From IMG/VR virus record IMGVR_UViG_2778261163_000001: a stretch of 18,618 nucleotides of DNA. One strand, 5' to 3'. This document shows positions 4,304 through 18,390 of the stretch, piece after piece. The position numbers and the translations under genes are program-made. Below the pieces are notes generated by a model, which was not told where the DNA came from, made no database searches, and saw only the letters and a program-made list of their open reading frames with translations. The stretch's first letter is position 1; each line of letters begins with the position of its first letter. Source of the stretch: a virus (Duplodnaviria > Heunggongvirae > Uroviricota > Caudoviricetes).

Positions 4304-5073
4304 CTACACACACTGCTCCTGAAAATACTGGTCATCCAGTGCAAAGATCACTGCTTCAAATTCATCGCGCTCAATCAATACCGGATGAGTGGCTAAATAT
4401 TCATTTATCTCTGTCAGAGATAAAGGCAAAGGCACCCCAGCCATTCCAGCATAACGTCGGGCACGGGATATTACCGAATAGGCGTACAACAACTCCTTAA
4501 GCACCGGGTCTATTTCTGGTTCCGGTATCGGTGGCAACCTGAGTTTTTCTCGCTTCCATCTTGCCTTTTCCCCCCTTTCTCCCCCGAACTCCGATAACCA
4601 CCGCTGGGCAGCTATGGCTTTTTTATCGTATCCTGCTTCTGCTGCTCTTTACCCTGGGCGATGCTGGCTGCTTCTGCAAGGATCTGCCAGTACAACTCTG
4701 GATTCTGCTTAAGCAGCGCGATCCCTCGTTCTGCCGTATATTCCAGTGCAACCTCAACACCATTAACCAGTTCACCAACCCCTTTCCAGTCTTTCAGCAG
4801 ATAACGAGCGGCATTATCAATGAGTAAATCATCAACAGAATCCACCTCGGAAACCTTTGAAATATCAAACTCCTTCGTTCCGACGTGCAAACTGGCATCC
4901 ATTTTCTCAATGTGGCGACGGATTAATGCATTACGGGAGCGATACTGATCGTTATCGCTGCTTGCCACCAACAGTTTTAACCCGTCTACAGGTTTTAAGT
5001 CCTTCATTGGCGTAAACCAGCGTTCTCCACCAATGATAATTTTCTGATTAAGAATAAACATCCATAACCTCAT
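4304..5073 (-). CDS. tail assembly chaperone frameshift product (gpGT-like), made by a -1 shift at 4618..4624
   Basis: After a -1 slip at A AAA AAG the reading frame stays open with no stop (..AIAAQRWLSEFGGERGEKARWKREKLRL..) and runs in frame into the track ORF 4304..4537 (PPIPEPEIDPVLKELL...). I checked this codon by codon. The 4304..4537 ORF has only a TTG 'start', consistent with expression solely as a fusion. Predicted product about 256 aa. Confidence 0.7.
4612..5073 (-). CDS. tail assembly chaperone (lambda gpG-like, short form)
   Basis: 153-aa ORF directly upstream of the tape measure gene, ending ...DTIKKP-TAG with the slippery heptamer A_AAA_AAG two codons before the stop. Confidence 0.75.
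   Translation of the reverse strand: MRLWMFILNQKIIIGGERWFTPMKDLKPVDGLKLLVASSDNDQYRSRNALIRRHIEKMDASLHVGTKEFDISKVSEVDSVDDLLIDNAARYLLKDWKGVGELVNGVEVALEYTAERGIALLKQNPELYWQILAEAASIAQGKEQQKQDTIKKP
4618..4624 (-). other. programmed -1 ribosomal frameshift slippery heptamer A_AAA_AAG
   Basis: Plus-strand CTTTTTT at 4618..4624 is AAAAAAG on the minus strand, in the 0-frame register A AAA AAG, followed by a G-rich stretch (GGGGGAGAAAGGGGGG). Confidence 0.7.
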
Positions 5074-9988: not shown

Positions 9989-11104
9989 TTAAATCCCTGC
10001 TTTTCTGAATACCTGTGCATCACGCTCACGGAGCTGCTTCAGCGTCAGCCATTCGCCTTTATCGGTGTAAAATTCATCTGGCGACATACCACCATCCCGA
10101 ATCAGCTTTGCTCGGGTTTCCCCCACAATCTGTTTTTGTCTGGTGTAAGGCTGACGCAAAAACCATTCCCTGTAGGTTGTATCTCCGGCCACCACGCCAT
10201 CCATGCTGGCCCGCTCAGCCGGGGAAATATCGCGAACATCAATACCCAGTTCCTTCGCTGATTTCAGAATGAACGTTTCCGTTGAGCGGCAGCAGAAATG
10301 AATTTTTCCCGGCCCCTGCAAATAAGGCACGCTGTGACCTATAGGTTTATTATTCAGCGTATATTTGAGGCGATCCCTGATTCGACATTGTGGCGTAGTA
10401 CGATTATCAAGCGTTGATAACCATTGCTTACCCTTAATCAAATCATTATTCGCGCTGGCAAAACTCTCACGGGCAGTAGCAGCAAGATGTCCAACCGCTG
10501 TTTTTGCAATGCTGGCCGCATTAGCCCGGCTCATCTGCAATGCACCATCCTGAAATCCCTTACTGACATGTCCCCGAATTTTTCTTGCGATCTGCTCATT
10601 GGTATCCCCCAGCAAAAAACCCTGACGCACTGTATTTGTTATGCGTCTGAGCCGATCCGCCTCAAGATCTGAGGCCCACTCACTGAGCAGTCGTCCCTGG
10701 AATGGTCGCGCCATTGCAGCGGCATAAAGTGCATCAGGAGAGATACCAACCAGAGGGTGAACATCAGCAACAAAATCAGGTAGCATAGAATCAAACAGAC
10801 TTAACTGATAACCAGCCTCATAAATTGCCAGCTCGTTCAGCTCTCCGGAGAGACTGGTAAACATGCTGTTAATAGCAGTGCGGTTAACCTCTCTGACGCT
10901 CGCCAGAAGTGACTCCAGGCGCTTAACGGTAAAACTACCTGGATCGAGGCTGTCCAGTGCTATCAGCAGGCGAGCAGTAAGTTCCGCATCGCTGTCATTC
11001 AGTATTTTCACCATTCTGGCAGCCACGCCAGTGCTATAGCGGGATATCCAGACTGCATGAGCAATTGATTCATCACGCAGCCGTTCATTCACGGTTTGCA
11101 TCAT
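9989..11104 (-). CDS. phage head morphogenesis / minor head protein (Mu gpF / SPP1 gp7 family)
   Basis: 371-aa ORF directly downstream of the portal gene (20-nt overlap). C-terminal region ...WLSTLDNRTTPQCRIRDRLKYTLNNKPIG...GPGKIHFCCRST fits the conserved core of the Mu-F-like family as I remember it. Confidence 0.65.
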   Translation of the reverse strand: MMQTVNERLRDESIAHAVWISRYSTGVAARMVKILNDSDAELTARLLIALDSLDPGSFTVKRLESLLASVREVNRTAINSMFTSLSGELNELAIYEAGYQLSLFDSMLPDFVADVHPLVGISPDALYAAAMARPFQGRLLSEWASDLEADRLRRITNTVRQGFLLGDTNEQIARKIRGHVSKGFQDGALQMSRANAASIAKTAVGHLAATARESFASANNDLIKGKQWLSTLDNRTTPQCRIRDRLKYTLNNKPIGHSVPYLQGPGKIHFCCRSTETFILKSAKELGIDVRDISPAERASMDGVVAGDTTYREWFLRQPYTRQKQIVGETRAKLIRDGGMSPDEFYTDKGEWLTLKQLRERDAQVFRKAGI

Positions 11105-12493: not shown

Positions 12494-13795
12494 TTAAATC
12501 CGAAGTGATGTGACTCTTCCGGTCGGTTTGACAATAGGGAATTGCTTAACGATGAAATAACCTCCGGCATCATTCGGGTGATCATTGCCAGATTTTTTAT
12601 CAGGCTCCCCCTTCTCATCCCAGACCTGTTGCTCCAGAGATTCGGCATATAACGGGCAACGCTTCACATTAACTTTATAGCGACGCTCACCATTGGCATT
12701 GCAGAACATTGCATTCATTGAGTTAACGCGATCTTTTACTGGCGGGTTCGAGCTGTTCACCACAACGTTAAAACCAGCCTGCTTAAGCTGGGCTATATCC
12801 GTCGTACTTGCGTTACTTGATTTTCTGGAATCCCCGGAAGCATCTGGATAAATATAAATTTCCCTCACTTTCCGGTAATCATTCCCATCATACAGCCAGA
12901 AGCGTTCTTTAATGATGCGGATCATATCCGGCGTATCGTAGGCATTGATGATTTCAGTTACCGCACATGGAAGCCCCAAACGCAGCACATGGACGATTCC
13001 CGCCATCTTTCCAACGTTAAAATCCATCCCAATATAAATCGGCTCCCCTGGCTGCTCCACTTCTTCGCAATTATTCAGTTTCCGGTCAAACTGATGGTAA
13101 ACAGTACCACTTGTCAGGTTAGTAAACTGTCCTCGAAGATAGGCTTTAATCAGCTCTGGAGGGTATGATTCAAGAAGCGAAGGAATGTAATCTGCTGGCA
13201 GGTTCTTTTCATTATCGAAAGTAGATGCCTGCACTAGACCATACAGTGAGGCCAGCTCTGTTTTTTCACGCACGGCTTTAACAAACTGCTCGTAGACAAA
13301 TTTGAATCCTTCCGGCGTGGTTGTAACGTCAATACCGTTGCGAAGTCCATCAATCTTATAACGCATACGTGCAATTATCTTGCGCCACGCCGTTCTGGCT
13401 TTTTCCTTCGGCAAAATGTCCAGTTCATCCACCAACGCATTACCAATTTTGAAACCGACGATCGTTTGTGGCTTCTCCATCGATCTGCAGATAGTGGTTC
13501 CCCGATACTGGCGTCCGTAATAAAAGTGAACCTCTTTATTTCCCTCATTAATTTTTACGTTCAATCCCCAGTCAGCAGCAACTTCTTCCACTGTAGGGTA
13601 AAAAATATCGCGAATTTGGGGATACGTTGGCGCAAAATATCCCTGATTTATACCTGGATGCTCCCAAATCCCCTTGCATATGCCGCCACACCCAACCCAT
13701 GTTTTGCCCGAGCCAAAACCAGCAATATAGGCTTTAAATTTATGGGGCATTGAAAGAAATCGCGCCTGAGGCACATTAAGCGTCGGAGAGATCAT
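12494..13795 (-). CDS. terL: terminase large subunit
   Basis: Walker A (YIAGFGSGKTW), Walker B-like (NALVDELD), and C-terminal nuclease-type acidic motifs (IGMDFN, YPDASGD, HPNDAGGYF). Likely start is ATG at 13795 (MISPTL..., 433 aa), 8 nt after AAGGAG; the track's 13804 start is GTG. Confidence 0.9.
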   Translation of the reverse strand: MISPTLNVPQARFLSMPHKFKAYIAGFGSGKTWVGCGGICKGIWEHPGINQGYFAPTYPQIRDIFYPTVEEVAADWGLNVKINEGNKEVHFYYGRQYRGTTICRSMEKPQTIVGFKIGNALVDELDILPKEKARTAWRKIIARMRYKIDGLRNGIDVTTTPEGFKFVYEQFVKAVREKTELASLYGLVQASTFDNEKNLPADYIPSLLESYPPELIKAYLRGQFTNLTSGTVYHQFDRKLNNCEEVEQPGEPIYIGMDFNVGKMAGIVHVLRLGLPCAVTEIINAYDTPDMIRIIKERFWLYDGNDYRKVREIYIYPDASGDSRKSSNASTTDIAQLKQAGFNVVVNSSNPPVKDRVNSMNAMFCNANGERRYKVNVKRCPLYAESLEQQVWDEKGEPDKKSGNDHPNDAGGYFIVKQFPIVKPTGRVTSLRI

Positions 13796-14870
13796 CTTCA
13801 TCACTCCTTACTCTGGCATCAACCACATTAATATTGATCGCCACAGGCTGGGGATGTTCATTATCCTCCACCGTTTCGATCTCTTTGCGCAGCTTCTGGT
13901 TTTCTATTCTGCGCCGTTCAATTTCCAGTTCCTGTAGCCGCTTATCTGCACATAATGCCCCGCCAGCAGAAAGCAAACGCAACAATTCACGCCGGGCGGC
14001 AGCCTTATCCTCCAGCAGGATCTCAACACCGTATTTTCCGAGCTTTGACCCTGCATATAATTGCCGCGCATCCCCATCAAGCAGTGTGGTATCAGCCATA
14101 TAAAGCTGTCCCGTTCCCTCACCGCAGCACTTCGGGCAATCCGGATTGGGTATGGCGTTATCAACAAAGCCGAGGCCTCCATATTCCGGCTCGGGTTTAC
14201 CATCTCTGGAGGCCTGTGCCGCAGCCTTATCGAATTCTGCAATATCACGCCACTGGTAGAGATGATTCTCGCCCCAGCAATAACGGCAGTTAACACGGCG
14301 AAATTGTGCCAACTGATTGGGGTCGGCCTGGACAATGGCCATCAACTGGCTCACCAGTAAATCCAGGTCTGCGGTATAGCGTTTCTGGTACTGATTGCGG
14401 AAGTAGCTGATAGCACGATAAACCCTGGCATTTCTAAGCATACGACTGGCGTTGCTGTTAGCTGTCGCACCTTGCCCCTCATAACCGGCTAGTCGGTACG
14501 CCTCTGTCGGCTTTTTACCCTGAGCAACAAGCATCGCAAACTTAGCCTGCTGGTCAGAAATGCCGAATTCATCGGGACAGAACGAAAATTCCTCCGCGTC
14601 GCCTTCATTCAGGCCCGCATCGAATACTGGCTTTTTTTCCTGAGATTTTTCGTTCCGCTTTTGTGCAGTCTGCGCAGATTTTTTCTGCGCACTTTTTTGC
14701 GCAGTTTTGCGCATTTCTGTCTGCGCATTTTTCGGAGTTTTTTTGATGTAACGACGGGCTGTTGCGTAATTCAGTCCCCTTGCTTCACACCATGCCACCG
14801 GAGATATACCGGAGCGGGTGTATTCAGCAATATACTCCTGCTGCAACGCCCCCCAGTCCGGTCTGCTCAT
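13776..14870 (-). CDS. terS: terminase small subunit (long form, with Cys4 cluster)
   Basis: Immediately upstream of terL and overlapping it. Central segment ...SDQQAKFAMLVAQGKKPTEAYRLAGYEGQGATANSNASRMLRNARVYRAISYF... fits the small-terminase HTH pattern. Also has an N-terminal HTH-like region, a Lys/Gln/Ala-rich linker, and a CxxC...CxxC cluster (CRYCWGENH...CPKCCGEG). Confidence 0.75.
   Translation of the reverse strand: MSRPDWGALQQEYIAEYTRSGISPVAWCEARGLNYATARRYIKKTPKNAQTEMRKTAQKSAQKKSAQTAQKRNEKSQEKKPVFDAGLNEGDAEEFSFCPDEFGISDQQAKFAMLVAQGKKPTEAYRLAGYEGQGATANSNASRMLRNARVYRAISYFRNQYQKRYTADLDLLVSQLMAIVQADPNQLAQFRRVNCRYCWGENHLYQWRDIAEFDKAAAQASRDGKPEPEYGGLGFVDNAIPNPDCPKCCGEGTGQLYMADTTLLDGDARQLYAGSKLGKYGVEILLEDKAAARRELLRLLSAGGALCADKRLQELEIERRRIENQKLRKEIETVEDNEHPQPVAININVVDARVRSDEDDLSDA
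14662..14727. repeat. phased array of palindromic TGCGCA hexamers separated by T-tracts, inside terS; candidate pac / terminase-binding site
   Basis: Five exact TGCGCA copies at 14671, 14686, 14698, 14708 and 14722, plus a TGTGCA variant at 14662, spaced 9-15 bp apart with T-runs between them. They coincide with the AQK-repeat linker of TerS. The repeat itself is read directly; the function is inference. Confidence 0.4.
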
Positions 14871-14873
14871 CAG

Positions 14874-15125
14874 TTAGTCCTGATTTTTATCCACCCTGAG
14901 TAGTTCGCGCAGAGCAAAGGCATCCCCTTTTCTGGCAAGCTTAAACAATGCCGCTCGTAACTCGGCTTCACCTTTCGCTCTGCCCTTACGGATGGCCGCA
15001 TAAAAATCTGTCATTGCTTCCCGATTTTCTTTCAGTCGGTTCAGATCAACATCCAGAACGTCAGCGATTTGTTGTGCAGTCATCCGGCACGCTGCCAGAG
15101 ACTCGACTTTCGAATACGGAATCAT
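14874..15125 (-). CDS. small helix-turn-helix protein, function unknown (possibly packaging-associated)
   Basis: 83-aa ORF, ATG at 15125 preceded by GGGGGTGA. Segment TAQQIADVLDVDLNRLKENRE looks like an HTH. Stops 3 nt before the terS start; overlaps the 3' end of the upstream glycosyltransferase-like gene by about 65 nt. Confidence 0.4.
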   Translation of the reverse strand: MIPYSKVESLAACRMTAQQIADVLDVDLNRLKENREAMTDFYAAIRKGRAKGEAELRAALFKLARKGDAFALRELLRVDKNQD

Positions 15126-15993
15126 TTGTCACCCCCATTGATATGCAGGGTGTCTTCTTCCTGTATTTTTCGTGAAGGATTTTTACTGCAGCGTTGTTCC
15201 AGGTGACCTGATGGTGAATGCGTTTATGGCTGGCACCCATCAGTGAAATTTTTACGCACGACGGCGCATACATGACGGAGTAAAAACTTTTAACGTAGGT
15301 TCCGGAATCCAGATACAGCTCGGTCATTCCGCCGCTGTTTTTCTGCGTCTGTTTCTGCCCTAACTGGACAGCACCGATCGTCATAAACAATTCACCACAG
15401 CGACCGAGATTCGTGTACGTATTCACATCCTCGTTAATGCGCCCCATGAATGAGAACGGTCGATCAACCGAACAGATAAAGCTGTTCATTGCCTTGCGTT
15501 TCACCCACGAAGCATGGCCGCCATTGTCACCAAGAAAATCCCCGCCCTGCGACATAGCGATGGAAAGAGCAGGTATTGATTCGTAGTACGCCAGCATTTC
15601 AGAAAGGATCGCATCCAGTTTCCTTATCGGAAAATAGGCCTGGTCATAGTTGCGATCCACCCGAAACTGGAACTCGTGATAATCATCATCGAGCTGAATG
15701 AAGTATTTACACCCGACCAGTTTTGCCAGGTCGAAACAGGCATTACGGGCGTAAAAAATTGAGCGGCGGTCACAGAAATTATCGGCTTCGTCAAAACGAC
15801 TGGCGATATCGGTTTTGGAAAACACCAGCACCTGTTCACCAAATTCAGCCATGTACTGATGCCGTGTCTTATCTTCATCATCAACAACGATAAAAATTTT
15901 CCCGGTATAGCCAGCACGACGCAACGTTCGGTAAGTCAGAACTTTGTCCGGTCGCCCGTGAGTCAGAATAAAGGCGCAAAAATCATCACGCAT
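15061..15993 (-). CDS. GT-A-fold (GT2-like) glycosyltransferase-like protein, soluble
   Basis: Likely start ATG at 15993, 5 nt after GAGGAGGAGG (310 aa; the track start at 16014 lacks an SD). Motif layout typical of nucleotide-sugar GT-A enzymes: N-terminal strand AFILTHGR, acidic pair after strand 2 (KIFIVVDDED), and a DxD motif in the context ARNACFDLAKLVGCKYFIQLDDDYHEF. No obvious hydrophobic membrane segments. Confidence 0.5.
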   Translation of the reverse strand: MRDDFCAFILTHGRPDKVLTYRTLRRAGYTGKIFIVVDDEDKTRHQYMAEFGEQVLVFSKTDIASRFDEADNFCDRRSIFYARNACFDLAKLVGCKYFIQLDDDYHEFQFRVDRNYDQAYFPIRKLDAILSEMLAYYESIPALSIAMSQGGDFLGDNGGHASWVKRKAMNSFICSVDRPFSFMGRINEDVNTYTNLGRCGELFMTIGAVQLGQKQTQKNSGGMTELYLDSGTYVKSFYSVMYAPSCVKISLMGASHKRIHHQVTWNNAAVKILHEKYRKKTPCISMGVTNDSVFESRVSGSVPDDCTTNR

Positions 15994-16777
15994 ATTCCTC
16001 CTCCTCACCACCATGCATGATCTCCACCATGCGCTGCGTCATCCGGACAAATCCATTTTCAATAGCCTGCTGATAATCAATGATCACCAGCGCCGACTCC
16101 TCGAAAAAACACTGAATTTCAGCGGGGGCGTGAGCGTAATAGTCCGCAATTCTGCTGAAATTAAACACCGTGTGACGTTCTGCCGCACACAGGAGGAATT
16201 TCTCAATATCAGGCTCAAGGGAAGCCGAACGTATCCGGCTGATCAGCTCCTGCGTTTTCGTATCGTCGTACAGTTCACTGATATCCGGTTTACCGCCCGA
16301 CGGCTCATAAACAGGCGTATCAATTTTCGTCGTATACGGCTCCTCCTCATTTCCTGTACCGGGCAAAACATCCGTCAACAGTTCATCAATTTCTGTCGGG
16401 ATGAAGCCTGTCAGGGAGACATCAAAATCAGCATTGATTAGGTCCGACAGCTCCATCCGCAACAGATCTTCATCCCAGCCAGCATTCATCGGCAGGCGAT
16501 TATCTGCCAGGCGGTACGCCTTTTTCTGCTCATCCGTCAGGCCAGACAGAACAATGACCGGAACAGAATCCATTTTGAGCATTTCAGCCGCCATAACACG
16601 ACCGTGACCCGCAATAATTTCGCCCTTTTCGTCAATCAGCACCGGATTAGTCCAGCCGAATTGCTTAATACTTTCTACCAGTTGTGCCACCTGCTCAGGG
16701 CTGTGCGTCCTGGCGTTGTGCGCATACGGTGACAATTCTTGTAATGGGCGATAGACTATCTTTAATTTCTCGCTCAT
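15986..16777 (-). CDS. ParB-like nuclease domain (ParB/Srx fold) protein
   Basis: 263-aa ORF, ATG at 16777 preceded by AAGGA. N-terminal ...FGWTNPVLIDEKGEIIAGHGRVMAAEMLKMDSVPVIVL... carries the GHGR motif characteristic of ParB N-terminal / sulfiredoxin-like domains. Acidic C-terminus. Its stop overlaps the glycosyltransferase-like start (ATGCGTGA). Confidence 0.7.
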   Translation of the reverse strand: MSEKLKIVYRPLQELSPYAHNARTHSPEQVAQLVESIKQFGWTNPVLIDEKGEIIAGHGRVMAAEMLKMDSVPVIVLSGLTDEQKKAYRLADNRLPMNAGWDEDLLRMELSDLINADFDVSLTGFIPTEIDELLTDVLPGTGNEEEPYTTKIDTPVYEPSGGKPDISELYDDTKTQELISRIRSASLEPDIEKFLLCAAERHTVFNFSRIADYYAHAPAEIQCFFEESALVIIDYQQAIENGFVRMTQRMVEIMHGGEEEEYA

Positions 16778-16791
16778 ACATCCTTGCTTTA

Positions 16792-16829
16792 TGAATAAAA
16801 CGCACCCCAGCAGCCAGTGCTACTGGGGG
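16792..16829 (-). terminator. putative intrinsic terminator downstream of trkG
   Basis: Minus strand: CCCCAGUAGC-ACUG-GCUGCUGGGG (10-bp stem with one U-G pair) followed by UGCGUUUUAUU, lying between the trkG stop (16915) and the ParB-like start (16777). Confidence 0.55.
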
Positions 16830-16914: not shown

Positions 16915-18372
16915 TTAGGAGCGCCAAAAAAAACCTGAAAACAATATAATAACAGGATAAATTTCAAGGCGACCAAGAATCATAGCTATGCACATTAAAT
17001 ATTTTGCAATGTCATTAAGCACTCCGAATGACGATGCAGTAGCCCCAAAACCTAATCCCATATTATTAATACATGCAGCCACTGTTGCAAATGATGTAAG
17101 AAAATCATATCCCATACCATTTAACACCAGTATAAAAAACACCGTGAAGAGAGTATAAAGAAAAAAGAAACTCCATACAGACCTCATTACACGATCTGTA
17201 ACTATCTTCCCTCCTACATTTACACTCAACAACGCTCTGGGATGAGAAAGCTGATTTATCTCGTGTTTGCTTTGTTTGAAAAGTATAAGAAATCGAAGTG
17301 ACTTAATTCCACCACAAGTTGAACCTATACATCCCCCAAAGAAACTTGACAACAGCAAAAACACTATCGTGTGCGTGGGCCAGCTTGCATAATCCTGCGT
17401 AGCTAAACCATTATCAGTGAGCATGGAGCTGGCAAGAAAAAACGAATGAATAAAACTTCCATGCAAGTCATACATACCTATATGCCAGACCTGGAAAGAG
17501 GTAACAATGATCACCCCTAAGGCTATTAACAGAAAGAAACGAAGTTCAATATCTCTGATTAAAGGTTTTATCGTTTTCCTGCTAATAACAATATACCAAA
17601 GAGTGAAGTTGAAAGCCGATAGCAGGGAAAAAGAACCAGCCACCAGCTCAACCAAATAGTTATTAAAATATCCGATACTCTCGCTATGAGTTGAGAAACC
17701 ACCAAGCGAAACTGTGGAAATCCCGTGACAAATAGCGTCAAACAAAGGCATTCCTGCAAGTCTATAACAGACAATACAAGCAATACCTAATAAAGAATAA
17801 GTTATCCACAGTGTCCGTGACGTATCGGCCAGGCGGGGAGTGAGTTTGTCATCCTTAAATGGCCCCGGCATTTCTGACTGATAAAGCTTTGCACCACCAA
17901 TACCCAATAATGGCAATACAGCAACCGCCAGAACAATAACTCCTAAACCACCTATAAAATTTAACTGTGACCGATAGTACAAATATGCCCGAGGTAATGA
18001 ACTAACATCATCAATTACAGTTGCTCCTGTTGTTGTTATTCCAGAAACCCCTTCAAACAGAGCATCAATGAACGTTAAATTAAGTTCTGAGTCAATCCAT
18101 AAAGGGAATGCACTAATAACAGAAAACAAAATCCAAAACATTACAATTATAATAAACCCATCACGGGTACGTAATTGAATGCCAGATTTCTTAGTTGTAT
18201 ACCACGCTCCGCCACCAATACAAAAAAATATAACGAAAGTTATAAAGAAAACGAACAGGCTTTTTTCTTTATAAAACAATGCTACAACCATTGGTGGCAA
18301 CATTGAAAGACTATAGAGCCAAACCAGGAACCCACACATATGAGTAACAACTCTTACATGAGATGTATTCAT
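16915..18372 (-). CDS. trkG: Trk-system potassium uptake protein TrkG
   Basis: Polytopic membrane protein with repeated glycine-rich selectivity-filter-like segments (GVSGITTTG, LNFIGGLGVIVL, STVSLGGFSTH, NNMGLGFGA) typical of the TrkH/TrkG/KtrB family. Starting at the ATG at 18372 (MNTSHVRVV...) gives 485 aa, the length I recall for E. coli TrkG; the track start at 18390 is TTG. The region is visibly AT-rich relative to the phage structural genes, and trkG is known to reside in the Rac prophage. Confidence 0.85.
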   Translation of the reverse strand: MNTSHVRVVTHMCGFLVWLYSLSMLPPMVVALFYKEKSLFVFFITFVIFFCIGGGAWYTTKKSGIQLRTRDGFIIIVMFWILFSVISAFPLWIDSELNLTFIDALFEGVSGITTTGATVIDDVSSLPRAYLYYRSQLNFIGGLGVIVLAVAVLPLLGIGGAKLYQSEMPGPFKDDKLTPRLADTSRTLWITYSLLGIACIVCYRLAGMPLFDAICHGISTVSLGGFSTHSESIGYFNNYLVELVAGSFSLLSAFNFTLWYIVISRKTIKPLIRDIELRFFLLIALGVIIVTSFQVWHIGMYDLHGSFIHSFFLASSMLTDNGLATQDYASWPTHTIVFLLLSSFFGGCIGSTCGGIKSLRFLILFKQSKHEINQLSHPRALLSVNVGGKIVTDRVMRSVWSFFFLYTLFTVFFILVLNGMGYDFLTSFATVAACINNMGLGFGATASSFGVLNDIAKYLMCIAMILGRLEIYPVIILFSGFFWRS

Positions 18373-18390
18373 ATCTAAATATTCTTTCAA

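What the first reader, a model, noticed from the sequence alone, without database searches (positions are those of the whole stretch)
14874..16777. ParB-like protein plus soluble GT-A glycosyltransferase-like protein (and a small HTH protein) wedged between the trkG moron and terS
Three co-oriented, translationally coupled genes sit just upstream of the terminase genes, a position where lambdoid phages often carry DNA-modification or anti-restriction cargo. The 263-aa protein has a ParB/Srx-type GHGR domain. The 310-aa protein has the layout of a nucleotide-sugar GT-A glycosyltransferase (AFILTHGR, FIVVDDED, YFIQLDDDYHEF) with no membrane anchor, so it is unlikely to be an O-antigen GtrB-type enzyme. 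A ParB-like DNA-binding or nicking domain paired with a soluble glycosyltransferase is consistent with a DNA-targeted glycosylation or anti-defence function, or possibly an abortive-infection or exclusion module. I do not recognise this pairing as a described system.
Basis: partly seen in the sequence, partly recalled or inferred. Interest (0 to 1): 0.75.

Follow-up and report, generated by a model that had tools for sequence, protein, structure and literature searches.

The report
ParB-tethered phage glycosyltransferase pair
Just upstream of the DNA-packaging genes, this Rac-type E. coli prophage carries a sugar-transferring enzyme of the family that glycosylates phage DNA, together with a dedicated ParB-like partner; the pair recurs in viruses of bacteria and archaea, yet no enzyme that would make the usual hydroxymethyl attachment point on DNA was found with it.

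Summary
On the minus strand, three overlapping or abutting genes lie between trkG and terS: a 263-aa ParB/Srx protein (full-length YnaK), a 310-aa soluble GT-A glycosyltransferase and an 83-aa terS-like HTH protein.

The glycosyltransferase belongs to Pfam TAGT (PF20691, E 3e-35), the family of trypanosome JGT, the second glucosyltransferase of phage T6 and the phage 5hmC glycosyltransferases. The components are therefore known kinds.

The new result is that this TAGT clade is obligately paired with a roughly 110-aa domain that has no Pfam model (the CTD), usually at the C-terminus of a ParB NTP-binding module:
- 241 of 241 loci found through TAGT have the partner upstream.
- 75 of 75 loci found through the CTD have TAGT downstream.

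About 12% of partners are CTD-only and sit in replication modules. One natural GT–ParB–CTD fusion exists. The pair precedes at least five terminase types and occurs in E. coli, Gram-positive, Bacteroidota and haloarchaeal viruses.

I found no TET/JBP dioxygenase or thymidylate-synthase-like hydroxymethylase next to it, or anywhere in Rac-type or Lactobacillus phage c5 genomes.

Best reading: a ParB-loaded, late-expressed DNA glycosyltransferase whose acceptor is unknown. It is a new variant of a known kind, and directly testable in E. coli.

The parts
15986..16777 (-). ParB-like partner protein (full-length YnaK, 263 aa): NTP-binding ParB/Srx domain, helix-helix segment, disordered linker and C-terminal CTD.
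   Evidence: ORF. Pfam ParB_N, 28.9 bits. PHROG 620, E 1e-90. AF2 model with pLDDT 71, with CTP-ParB, Noc and KorB as top structural matches.
16373..16777 (-). ParB NTP-binding domain (aa 1-97) plus helix-helix segment (aa 98-135). Motif residues N21, R23, G57-H58-G59-R60 and N93.
   Evidence: Residues 10-144 match the N-terminal module of ParB-methyltransferase fusions (PADLOC MTase_II, E 2.5e-38; PHROG 498, E 1e-50). Motif conservation across 111 partners is given.
15989..16336 (-). CTD (aa 148-263): an invariant Y-[T/S]...P-x-Y motif in a disordered stretch, then a helical domain (R201, Y214, Q222, E226, D234). This is the TAGT-specific partner domain and has no Pfam family.
   Evidence: Alignment; invariant columns; no Pfam hit. 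1172 clusters at 50% identity, always C-terminal in the 150 best hits listed. 75 of 75 CTD-selected loci carry TAGT downstream.
15061..15993 (-). TAGT-family GT-A glycosyltransferase (310 aa). Motifs R14 (THGR), D102-D103-D104 and N187-E188-D189-V190. It has a 21-25 aa C-terminal extension specific to the E. coli lineage.
15997..16006 (-). Shine-Dalgarno run GAGGAGGAGG for TAGT, lying inside the 3' end of the ParB gene. The TAGT ATG and the ParB TGA overlap as ATGCGTGA at 15993-15986.
   Evidence: Sequence read directly.
14874..15125 (-). Small HTH protein (83 aa), a terS-family paralogue. It is part of the packaging module and not a core part of the pair.
   Evidence: PHROG 309 'terminase small subunit', E 8e-23. 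It is a member of cluster 3, found at position +1 in 41 of 130 non-redundant loci.
13776..14870 (-). Terminase small subunit (context).
   Evidence: Pfam Terminase_2 and PHROG 51.
12494..13804 (-). Terminase large subunit (context).
   Evidence: Pfam Terminase_6N and Terminase_6C.
16805..16828 (-). Terminator-like hairpin (10-bp stem, 7 G-C pairs, T-rich tail) at the 3' end of the trkG moron, 28 nt upstream of the ParB start.
16915..18390 (-). trkG potassium-uptake moron (context).
   Evidence: ORF; RefSeq annotation of the identical region.

Best explanation
The pair encodes a two-subunit, DNA-directed glycosyltransferase that acts after replication and before packaging.

Shown:
- The 310-aa protein is a TAGT-family GT-A enzyme with the family's R...DDD...ED catalytic motifs intact.
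- Its gene is always preceded by, and translationally coupled to, a gene whose product ends in a dedicated roughly 110-aa domain (the CTD).
- In about 88% of lineages the CTD is carried on a ParB-type NTP-binding module of the same sub-type that is fused to phage DNA methyltransferases.
- The pair is the first unit of the late (packaging) gene block in temperate and small lytic phages. CTD-only versions lie inside replication modules.

Inferred:
- The CTD binds TAGT as an obligate subunit. The acidic CTD would sit against the basic C-terminal half of TAGT.
- The ParB module acts as an NTP-gated DNA clamp or loader that gives the enzyme access to double-stranded DNA. This is by analogy with the ParB proteins that activate phage thymine dioxygenases on dsDNA only.
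- Late transcription, reading through the trkG terminator, makes the enzyme as concatemeric DNA accumulates. The DNA would then be sugar-decorated before the terminase packages it, which would blunt restriction and similar nucleases in the next host.

Unknown: the acceptor atom. No phage-encoded route to 5-hydroxymethyl- or 5-hydroxy-pyrimidines was found. The acceptor is therefore either something already present in ordinary DNA or a group made by an unrecognised enzyme.
For: Family and fold:
- The motifs R14, DDD102-104 and ED188-189 are invariant. They match the R...DDD...EDY/F motif of experimentally active phage 5hmC glycosyltransferases and JGT (bioRxiv 10.1101/2023.12.21.572611). The T6 second glucosyltransferase is also a TAGT (PMC13390438).

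Obligate pairing:
- 241 of 241 TAGT-selected loci with room upstream carry the CTD gene on the same strand. 217 are strictly adjacent; most of the other 24 overlap only because of ORF-start calling, and a few have one or more genes in between.
- 75 of 75 CTD-selected loci carry TAGT, 72 of them immediately downstream.
- One locus has a tandem CTD-TAGT-CTD-TAGT arrangement (L202).
- One natural fusion exists: GT-A(TAGT)-ParB-CTD, P0371.
- Negative control: the T4-like Aeromonas phage 65 TAGT has no CTD.

Link to DNA:
- ParB residues 10-144 match the ParB module of DNA methyltransferase fusions (E 2.5e-38; E 1e-50).
- The closest structures are CTP-bound ParB, Noc and KorB.
- NTP-motif residues are conserved: N21, G57, R60 in 101 of 111, and N93.
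- The NBD, helix-helix, disordered linker, CTD architecture is the same as that of the 5mYOX-activating ParBs (PMC13229309).
- CTD-only pairs sit between DNA polymerase A, a beta-clamp-like gene, DnaB, primase-helicase and SNF2 genes.

Independence from terminase type and host:
- The pair precedes Terminase_2/6N, a Mu-like head type, GpA, Terminase_4/TerL_ATPase and others.
- Hosts include E. coli, Lactobacillus, Nocardia, Porphyromonas, Veillonella, Bacteroides and Haloarcula.

Selection and accessory genes:
- Synonymous sites are saturated while dN is 0.12 for TAGT and 0.32 for ParB, E. coli versus Salmonella.
- Sugar-tailoring accessory genes appear in some loci: NAD-dependent epimerase, a second TAGT, a SAM methyltransferase and radical SAM-SPASM.
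Against: - Every characterised DNA glycosyltransferase needs a hydroxyl acceptor made beforehand (5hmC, 5hmU, 5hoC or a sugar). No TET/JBP or ThyA-family gene was found in the complete Rac-type phage or in the complete 31.8-kb phage c5.
- None was found in eight loci with precomputed Pfam annotation, nor among recurrent neighbour families in 136 non-redundant loci. A ThyA search over about 320 loci found nothing.
- One TAGT-family member, GREB1, glycosylates a protein (PMC7968844).
- The partner protein is strongly acidic (net -25) and has no recognisable DNA-binding domain.
- No complex was modelled and no biochemical data exist.
- My dioxygenase search rested on Pfam annotation, clustering and one recalled seed sequence. 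A very divergent or distantly encoded hydroxylase is not excluded.
Confidence: 0.5

Rival explanations
1. Protein glycosylation. TAGT glycosylates its own partner on the invariant Tyr148, Thr/Ser149 or Tyr157 of the disordered linker, in the manner of glycogenin or GREB1. The sugar would regulate the ParB-like protein or prime a protein-bound glycan.
For: - Y148, [T/S]149, P155 and Y157 are invariant in 111 of 111 partners. They lie in a segment predicted to be disordered, with pLDDT below 50. This is typical of a short linear motif presented to an enzyme.
- The only protein universally co-present with TAGT is this partner.
- GREB1, a TAGT-domain protein, O-GlcNAcylates Thr/Ser of a protein (PMC7968844).
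- This reading removes the need for a hydroxymethylase.
Against: - It does not explain why the partner carries a methyltransferase-type ParB module.
- It does not explain why CTD-only pairs sit among replisome genes.
- It does not explain why the module is under strong selection in viruses of all prokaryotic lineages.
- An invariant motif is equally expected for a docking peptide.
Confidence: 0.17
2. Classical hydroxymethyl-pyrimidine glycosylation. TAGT adds sugar to 5hmU or 5hmC made by an unrecognised or distantly encoded hydroxylase, or to trace oxidative 5hmU. The system would then be an ordinary member of the 5mYOX/ThyS-GT pathways with the first enzyme hidden.
For: - All DNA-active TAGT relatives use such acceptors.
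- O'Toole et al. report thousands of contigs retrieved with phage 5mYOX profiles that lack a Pfam TET/JBP annotation.
- Vibrio phage pv27, which has a CTD-only pair, encodes a ThyA-family gene, DHFR and a dNMP kinase elsewhere in its genome.
- Radical SAM-SPASM enzymes accompany 7 of 136 non-redundant loci.
Against: - The complete genomes of the Rac-type phage and phage c5 have no candidate gene. In c5 the largest unassigned early protein is 209 aa.
- No conserved third gene occurs near the pair in 136 non-redundant loci.
- No ThyA homologue was found in about 320 loci.
- Rac-type phages use the host replisome and nucleotide pools (own knowledge).
Confidence: 0.13
3. The target is neither DNA nor the partner. 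The pair acts on a nucleotide, RNA or host factor, for example by sugar-capping an immune signalling nucleotide. Alternatively, the ParB protein is a packaging accessory and the glycosyltransferase is cargo that merely travels with it.
For: - ParB/Srx folds bind CTP, ATP or GTP and include small-molecule kinases (PMC12704722; SerK and Srx hits).
- An Acb2/Tad1-like gene sits directly upstream of the pair in one Salmonella prophage.
- The pair is always next to the terminase in temperate phages.
Against: - The 1:1 obligate CTD-TAGT linkage, the tandem duplications and the fusion argue for one machine rather than cargo plus accessory.
- Five or more unrelated terminase types argue against a terminase-specific role.
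- CTD-only pairs are not near terminases.
- No PADLOC hit.
- Anti-defence genes are usually expressed early, not at the head of the late operon (own knowledge).
Confidence: 0.12
4. A decaying remnant: a former TET/JBP-ParB-TAGT cassette that lost its dioxygenase, perhaps when trkG was inserted, and no longer does anything.
For: - trkG is inserted exactly upstream of the pair.
- From my own knowledge, E. coli K-12 keeps only a truncated ynaK. Only 867 of the 1580 E. coli genomes with a match hold the full cassette.
Against: - The dioxygenase-less pair is the rule in 136 non-redundant lineages, including ones without trkG.
- Synonymous sites are saturated while amino acids are conserved.
- 55 residues are invariant between bacterial and archaeal virus copies.
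- 60 of 63 E. coli-type copies have full-length TAGT ORFs.
Confidence: 0.03

Closest known systems
Phage 5mYOX (TET/JBP) - ParB - glycosyltransferase hypermodification clusters (Burke 2021 PMC8256090; Pyle 2023 bioRxiv 10.1101/2023.12.21.572611; O'Toole 2026 PMC13229309)
   Same: - A JGT-like GT-A glycosyltransferase of the same Pfam family.
- A ParB-like protein with the same NBD, helix-helix, disordered linker, CTD layout and no HTH.
- Frequent position next to terminase genes.
- Sugar-tailoring accessory genes.
   Different: - No dioxygenase, C5-methyltransferase or ThyS-like enzyme is present.
- The ParB-like protein is coupled to the glycosyltransferase, not to a dioxygenase.
- Its CTD is a dedicated TAGT partner: 75 of 75 CTD-selected loci carry TAGT.
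- I could not compare sequences with the published ParB176, which was not available here.
Base-J glucosyltransferase (JGT) and T6 beta-glucosyl-HMC-alpha-glucosyltransferase (TAGT family PF20691)
   Same: Same Pfam family, the same GT-A fold, and the same R...DDD...ED motifs.
   Different: - Those enzymes act alone on 5hmU in DNA or on glucosyl-5hmC.
- Sequence identity to the T4-like members is only 22-24%.
- Those members have no CTD or ParB partner.
- This clade has an invariant V where the published motif has Y/F (EDV instead of EDY/F).
ParB-DNA methyltransferase fusion proteins of phages and plasmids (PHROG 498; PADLOC MTase_II; Kaljevic 2025 PMC12704722)
   Same: The N-terminal 140 residues (NBD plus helix-helix) are the same sub-type of ParB module (E 1e-50 and 2.5e-38). 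In both cases the module is attached to an enzyme that acts on DNA, and both are enriched in prophages.
   Different: The methyltransferase domain is replaced by the CTD. The enzyme (TAGT) is a separate polypeptide, apart from the rare fusion P0371.
GREB1 (animal TAGT-domain O-GlcNAc transferase; PMC7968844)
   Same: It has a TAGT-type catalytic domain. PGAP names the window protein 'GREB1-related'.
   Different: GREB1 is a large eukaryotic protein acting on a nuclear receptor. It has no ParB partner and no phage context.
T4 alpha- and beta-glucosyltransferases
   Same: They are phage enzymes that glucosylate DNA after replication to evade restriction.
   Different: They have a GT-B fold, are unrelated in sequence, and depend on pre-replicative 5hmC synthesis.

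Membership tests
TAGT, TET-associated glycosyltransferase (Pfam PF20691) | Profile match above Pfam's gathering score | tested here: met
   122.3 bits against a cutoff of 27.5, E 3.3e-35, covering profile positions 4-205 of 205.
TAGT, TET-associated glycosyltransferase (Pfam PF20691) | GT-A (nucleotide-diphospho-sugar transferase) fold | tested here: met
TAGT, TET-associated glycosyltransferase (Pfam PF20691) | Catalytic motifs R...DDD...EDY/F described for active phage GT-A enzymes and JGT | tested here: met
   R14, D102-D103-D104 and E188-D189 are invariant. The residue after ED is an invariant V instead of Y/F.
TAGT, TET-associated glycosyltransferase (Pfam PF20691) | Genomic association with a TET/JBP dioxygenase or a ThyS-like hydroxymethylase that makes the acceptor | tested here: not met
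   None was found in the complete Rac-type phage, in phage c5, in 8 Pfam-annotated loci, or among recurrent families in 136 non-redundant loci. A ThyA search was negative.
TAGT, TET-associated glycosyltransferase (Pfam PF20691) | Transfers sugar to 5hmC or 5hmU in DNA | not testable with these tools
   This needs biochemistry or LC-MS.
ParB-CTPase fold (Pfam PF02195) | Profile match and ParB/Srx fold | tested here: met
   28.9 bits against a cutoff of 26.3. A profile search against PDB sequences gave E 1e-11 to Noc and ParB. Foldseek top hits are 6sdk, 7bnr and 7nfu.
ParB-CTPase fold (Pfam PF02195) | NTP-binding motif residues: box I N/R, the GxxR P-motif and box III N | tested here: met
   N21, R/K23, G57, R60 (101 of 111) and N93 are conserved. 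The catalytic Glu of GERR is replaced by H or N, so hydrolysis is uncertain. Nucleotide binding itself was not testable.
Canonical partition ParB (ParABS) | HTH DNA-binding domain, a ParA partner and parS sites | tested here: not met
   There is no HTH domain by Pfam or in the AF2 model. TIGR00180 scores 38 bits against a cutoff of 58. No parA gene is in the locus. parS was not searched.
ParB activators of phage DNA-modifying enzymes (O'Toole 2026) | NBD, short structured helix-helix, unstructured linker, CTD architecture without a DNA-binding domain | tested here: met
   AF2 gives NBD 1-97, helices 103-134, disordered 136-155 and a helical CTD 166-255, compared with the description read.
ParB activators of phage DNA-modifying enzymes (O'Toole 2026) | Cognate 5mYOX partner whose dsDNA activity depends on the ParB | tested here: not met
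   The adjacent partner is TAGT, not a dioxygenase.
Known anti-phage defence or abortive-infection systems (PADLOC) | Match to a defence-system protein model | tested here: not met
   The only hit is the ParB N-terminal half to MTase_II. TAGT and the small protein have no hit.
Terminase small subunit family (for the 83-aa protein) | Profile match to a terS family | tested here: met
   PHROG 309, E 8e-23, covering profile positions 145-218 of 319. There is no Pfam hit.

The most novel reading that the evidence does not exclude
The CTD/TAGT enzyme, loaded by its ParB module, puts a sugar directly onto ordinary DNA after replication, on a canonical base or the backbone, with no prior hydroxylation step. 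That would be a chemically new class of DNA modification. It would be encoded by about one in six complete E. coli genomes and by viruses of most bacterial phyla and of haloarchaea.
Probability: 0.2. Interest if true: 0.9.

Novelty: new variant of a known kind. Interest (0 to 1): 0.62.

Why it matters
Phage DNA glycosylation is a major anti-restriction strategy and a source of enzymes for epigenomic tools. All known routes start from a hydroxylated pyrimidine.

This module is very widespread: 1172 CTD clusters at 50% identity, and hosts that include E. coli, gut Bacteroidota and Firmicutes, actinophages and a halovirus. It has the glycosyltransferase and a ParB-type loader but no hydroxylase. 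Either a new acceptor chemistry exists, or a TAGT enzyme has been turned to a protein target.

It also extends the recent finding that ParB folds are reused as partners of DNA-modifying enzymes from dioxygenases to glycosyltransferases. It defines a new partner domain.

It gives a function-level hypothesis for YnaK, a gene of unknown function in the E. coli Rac prophage. The question can be settled with simple experiments in E. coli or with the 31.8-kb Lactobacillus phage c5.

Tried and rejected
- **Dioxygenase or hydroxymethylase search.** I searched for a TET/JBP or ThyA-like gene near the pair through RefSeq/GenBank annotation of complete phages and precomputed Pfam in 8 loci. I also clustered all neighbours in 136 non-redundant loci and scanned every recurrent family against Pfam. 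Nothing was found. The NgTET1 seed is unverified, so that part is a weak negative.
- **Iyer et al. 2013.** I tried to read the paper that defined TAGT. It is not held, so what it says about ParB-TAGT pairs is known here only through O'Toole's citation.
- **Published ParB and 5mYOX sequences.** I looked for them in supplements to compare CTDs. None are held as sequence.
- **PDB sequence search with the TAGT profile.** No solved relative was found.
- **AFDB50 fold search.** It was intended to test similarity to JGT, but the library is unavailable. BFVD was used instead.
- **O-antigen or teichoic-acid conversion (GtrB/TarP type).** Rejected: there is no membrane segment, and 42-47% identity between copies in E. 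coli, Gram-positive and archaeal viruses excludes a host-surface acceptor.
- **Defence or abortive-infection module.** Rejected: no PADLOC hit, the pair occurs in lytic phages, and it lies in the late operon.
- **ydaY of K-12 as the glycosyltransferase remnant.** Rejected: ydaY maps to window 4612..5073, between the tape-measure and tail-tube genes.
- **Vibrio phage pv27.** Only the first 50 kb of the 191-kb genome was read, so whether it has a hydroxymethylase remains open.
Full report
**1. What is in the window**

The window is the late region of a Rac-type lambdoid prophage. The identical DNA lies next to ttcA, intR, recT and ralR in E. coli chromosomes.

All relevant genes are on the minus strand:
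- trkG, 18390..16915
- a 263-aa ParB/Srx protein, 16777..15986
- a glycosyltransferase-like ORF, 16014..15061
- an 83-aa ORF, 15125..14874
- terS, 14870..13776
- terL, 13804..12494
- portal and head genes further on

Homologues and PGAP put the glycosyltransferase start at ATG 15993, giving 310 aa that begin MRDDF. This ATG overlaps the ParB stop codon as ATGCGTGA and follows GAGGAGGAGG. The small gene's ATG at 15125, behind GGGGG, overlaps the glycosyltransferase tail by 65 nt. The terS ATG lies 3 nt after the small gene's stop.

A strong terminator-like hairpin at 16828..16805 closes the trkG moron, 28 nt before the ParB start. Neither protein has a membrane segment.

**2. What the parts are**

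*The 310-aa protein.*
- It matches Pfam PF20691, the TET-associated glycosyltransferase family (TAGT), at 122 bits against a cutoff of 27.5. It matches PHROG 842 at E 7e-104. Newer RefSeq records call it 'GREB1-related protein'.
- R14, D102-D104 and E188-D189 are invariant. They correspond to the R...DDD...EDY/F motifs reported for phage GT-A enzymes that glycosylate 5hmC and for trypanosome JGT.
- The T6-type second glucosyltransferase is also a TAGT.

*The 263-aa protein.*
- It is full-length YnaK, by PGAP gene name.
- It has a ParB NTP-binding domain (residues 1-97), a helix-helix segment (103-134), a disordered stretch (136-155) and a helical C-terminal domain (166-255).
- Its closest solved structures are CTP/CDP-bound ParB, Noc, PadC and KorB.
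- Residues 10-144 match the N-terminal module of ParB-DNA-methyltransferase fusions very strongly: PADLOC MTase_II at E 2.5e-38 and PHROG 498 at E 1e-50.

*The 83-aa protein.* It is a terS-family HTH protein (PHROG 309, E 8e-23).

**3. The pair is an obligate, ancient module**

TAGT relatives of 38-100% identity were collected from IMG/VR and from one genome per GTDB species.

*Forward test.* Of the 246 loci analysed, 241 had room upstream of TAGT. All 241 carried, on the same strand, a gene whose product ends in a conserved roughly 110-aa domain that I call the CTD. 217 were strictly adjacent. Most of the other 24 overlapped only because my ORF calling extended the TAGT start. A few have one or more genes in between.

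*The CTD.* Its motif is YTxKIxxPxYEP, followed by AAxRH, IAxYYAH, Q, E, SALVIID and AIxxGF.

*Reverse test.* 75 new loci were fetched using only the CTD. All 75 carry TAGT, 72 of them immediately downstream.

*Negative control.* The distant TAGT of the T4-like Aeromonas phage 65 has no CTD or ParB nearby.

*The CTD family.*
- It has no Pfam model.
- It comprises 1172 clusters at 50% identity and was at the C-terminus in the 150 best hits listed.
- In 111 aligned partners, Y148, [T/S]149, P155, Y157, R201, Y214, D234 and A238 are invariant. The NTP-motif residues N21, G57, R60 (101 of 111) and N93 are nearly so.

*Variant architectures.*
- About 12% of non-redundant partners are CTD-only proteins of 129-157 aa. 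The Vibrio 191-kb phages are an example.
- One locus has a tandem CTD-TAGT-CTD-TAGT arrangement.
- One database protein, P0371, is a natural fusion of a divergent TAGT to a complete ParB-CTD partner.

*Selection.* Synonymous sites between the E. coli and Salmonella copies are saturated, while dN is 0.12 for TAGT and 0.32 for ParB. 60 of 63 E. coli-type copies have full-length TAGT ORFs.

**4. Genomic context**

After dereplication to 136 loci at 85% identity, nothing upstream of the partner gene is conserved.

Downstream lie terminase genes of at least five unrelated types:
- Terminase_2/6N in Rac
- a Mu-like head type in Salmonella
- GpA
- Terminase_4/TerL_ATPase
- others

Further examples:
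- In Nocardia phage NTR1 the pair directly abuts terL.
- In the lytic cos phage c5 the pair forms the first two genes after the cos site.
- The pair is also present in Lactobacillus phi jlb1, Porphyromonas phages and the haloarchaeal virus HHTV-2.
- The TAGT proteins of E. coli, Gram-positive and archaeal viruses are 42-47% identical.

CTD-only pairs sit instead in replication modules, between DNA polymerase A and a beta-clamp-like gene, or next to DnaB, primase-helicase, DnaC-like or SNF2 genes.

Optional accessory genes are a second TAGT, an NAD-dependent sugar epimerase/dehydratase (7 non-redundant loci), radical SAM-SPASM (7), and a class I SAM methyltransferase that is inserted or fused.

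The window's small HTH gene belongs to a family found at position +1 in 41 of 130 loci. Its link to one terL type is loose. It is a packaging gene, not a core component of the pair.

**5. The missing first enzyme**

Known TAGT-type DNA glycosyltransferases need 5hmC, 5hmU or a sugar already attached to DNA. I found no TET/JBP dioxygenase, C5-methyltransferase or ThyA-like hydroxymethylase in any of the following:
- the complete Rac-type phage
- the complete 31.8-kb phage c5
- eight loci with precomputed Pfam annotation
- the recurrent neighbour families, which are SSB, RusA, VRR-NUC, DnaC-like, PcfJ/K and DUF1367
- a ThyA search of about 320 loci

The published survey of phage glycosyltransferases noted that about 65% of glycosyltransferase contigs lack such neighbours and set them aside. 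Vibrio phage pv27 does carry a ThyA-family gene with DHFR and a dNMP kinase elsewhere in its genome. A classical acceptor therefore cannot be excluded for the large lytic phages.

**6. Mechanism**

*Shown:*
- It is a TAGT-family GT-A with an intact catalytic motif set.
- It has a 1:1 genetic linkage to the CTD.
- The ParB module is of the methyltransferase-fused sub-type.
- The pair is placed late or in replication modules.
- It is under purifying selection.

*Inferred:*
- The CTD is a subunit of, or tether for, TAGT. The partner is very acidic (net -25), and the C-terminal half of TAGT is basic (net +8).
- The ParB module gives the enzyme access to duplex DNA. This is by analogy with ParB176, which is needed by its thymine dioxygenase only on dsDNA and has the same domain layout.
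- DNA is decorated before packaging.

I put 0.5 on DNA-directed glycosylation in this form. Within that, roughly 0.2 overall goes to a truly new acceptor on canonical DNA. The acceptor is unknown.

*Rivals:*
- Self-glycosylation of the invariant YT...PxY motif of the partner, as in GREB1 or glycogenin: 0.17.
- Classical hydroxymethyl-pyrimidine glycosylation with a hidden hydroxylase: 0.13.
- Another small-molecule, RNA or packaging role: 0.12.
- A decaying remnant: 0.03.

**7. Comparison with what is known, and novelty**

The families are known: TAGT (with JGT and the T6 enzyme) and the ParB-CTPase fold. ParB-like proteins in DNA-modification clusters were hypothesised in 2013 and demonstrated for dioxygenases in 2026.

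In the papers I could search, I did not find a description of any of the following:
- the obligate CTD-TAGT pairing
- the CTD as a domain
- its CTD-only and fused forms
- the systematic absence of a hydroxylase

Iyer et al. 2013 could not be read here, so some prior mention of ParB-TAGT neighbourhoods is possible.

I class the finding as a new variant of a known kind, with interest 0.62. A specialist would recognise the components at once. The missing acceptor is a real puzzle, and the system sits in a tractable E. coli prophage present in 16-29% of complete E. coli genomes.

Noticed in passing
window 15061-15125: The E. coli-lineage TAGT carries a 21-25 aa C-terminal extension that is absent from all other homologues, which end near ...KYRK. 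The extension makes TAGT overlap the start of the small HTH gene by 65 nt. In Salmonella the two genes overlap by only 4 nt (ATGA).
   Followed up: partly
window 16805-16828 (minus strand): The trkG moron ends in its own strong terminator-like hairpin (10-bp stem, 7 G-C pairs, T-rich tail), 28 nt before the ParB start. Expression of the pair therefore presumably depends on antiterminated late transcription.
   Followed up: partly
window 4612-5073 (minus strand): The ydaY homologue lies between the tape-measure and tail-tube genes. From my own knowledge of K-12, its adjacent ynaK and ydaY fragments would therefore reflect a large internal deletion that removed TAGT, the terminase and the head genes.
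   Followed up: no
window 9989-11104 (minus strand): The 371-aa minor head protein is annotated 'NAD+--asparagine ADP-ribosyltransferase' in the GenBank phage record ON470595, but 'phage minor head protein' in RefSeq.
   Followed up: no
L006 17837-20316 and L007 8659-11138: Four consecutive GT2-family glycosyltransferase genes lie just after the capsid gene in a phage that also has the ParB-TAGT pair. This could be a separate virion or glycan glycosylation system.
   Followed up: no
L003 3431-5102; L004 8761-9045: Salmonella prophages with the pair also carry a Cas1-like gene next to an AcrVA2-like gene. In L004, an Acb2/Tad1-hairpin anti-defence gene lies directly upstream of the ParB gene.
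   Followed up: no
L101 12749-16165: A 1138-aa portal-like protein appears to contain an intein-like insertion with a homing-endonuclease-like middle part. The same locus has two TAGT genes, a second ParB gene, a sugar epimerase and a radical SAM-SPASM fragment.
   Followed up: no
L202 8463-10909; L181 2970-5117: Tandem duplications of the CTD-TAGT unit in Bacteroidota prophages (CTD-TAGT-CTD-TAGT, and TAGT-CTD-TAGT). They are flanked by DNA polymerase A and a beta-clamp-like gene.
   Followed up: partly
L088 10001-11719; L236 5883-6719: A class I SAM-dependent methyltransferase domain is fused to the C-terminus of TAGT in L088. In L236 it is inserted as a separate gene between the partner and TAGT.
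   Followed up: partly
L327 24857-26251 (Vibrio phage pv27): This large lytic phage has a CTD-only partner plus TAGT. Elsewhere in its genome it encodes a ThyA-family enzyme beside DHFR, and a dNMP kinase at 613-1221. Only 50 kb of the 191 kb was read, so a hydroxymethylase was neither found nor excluded.
   Followed up: partly
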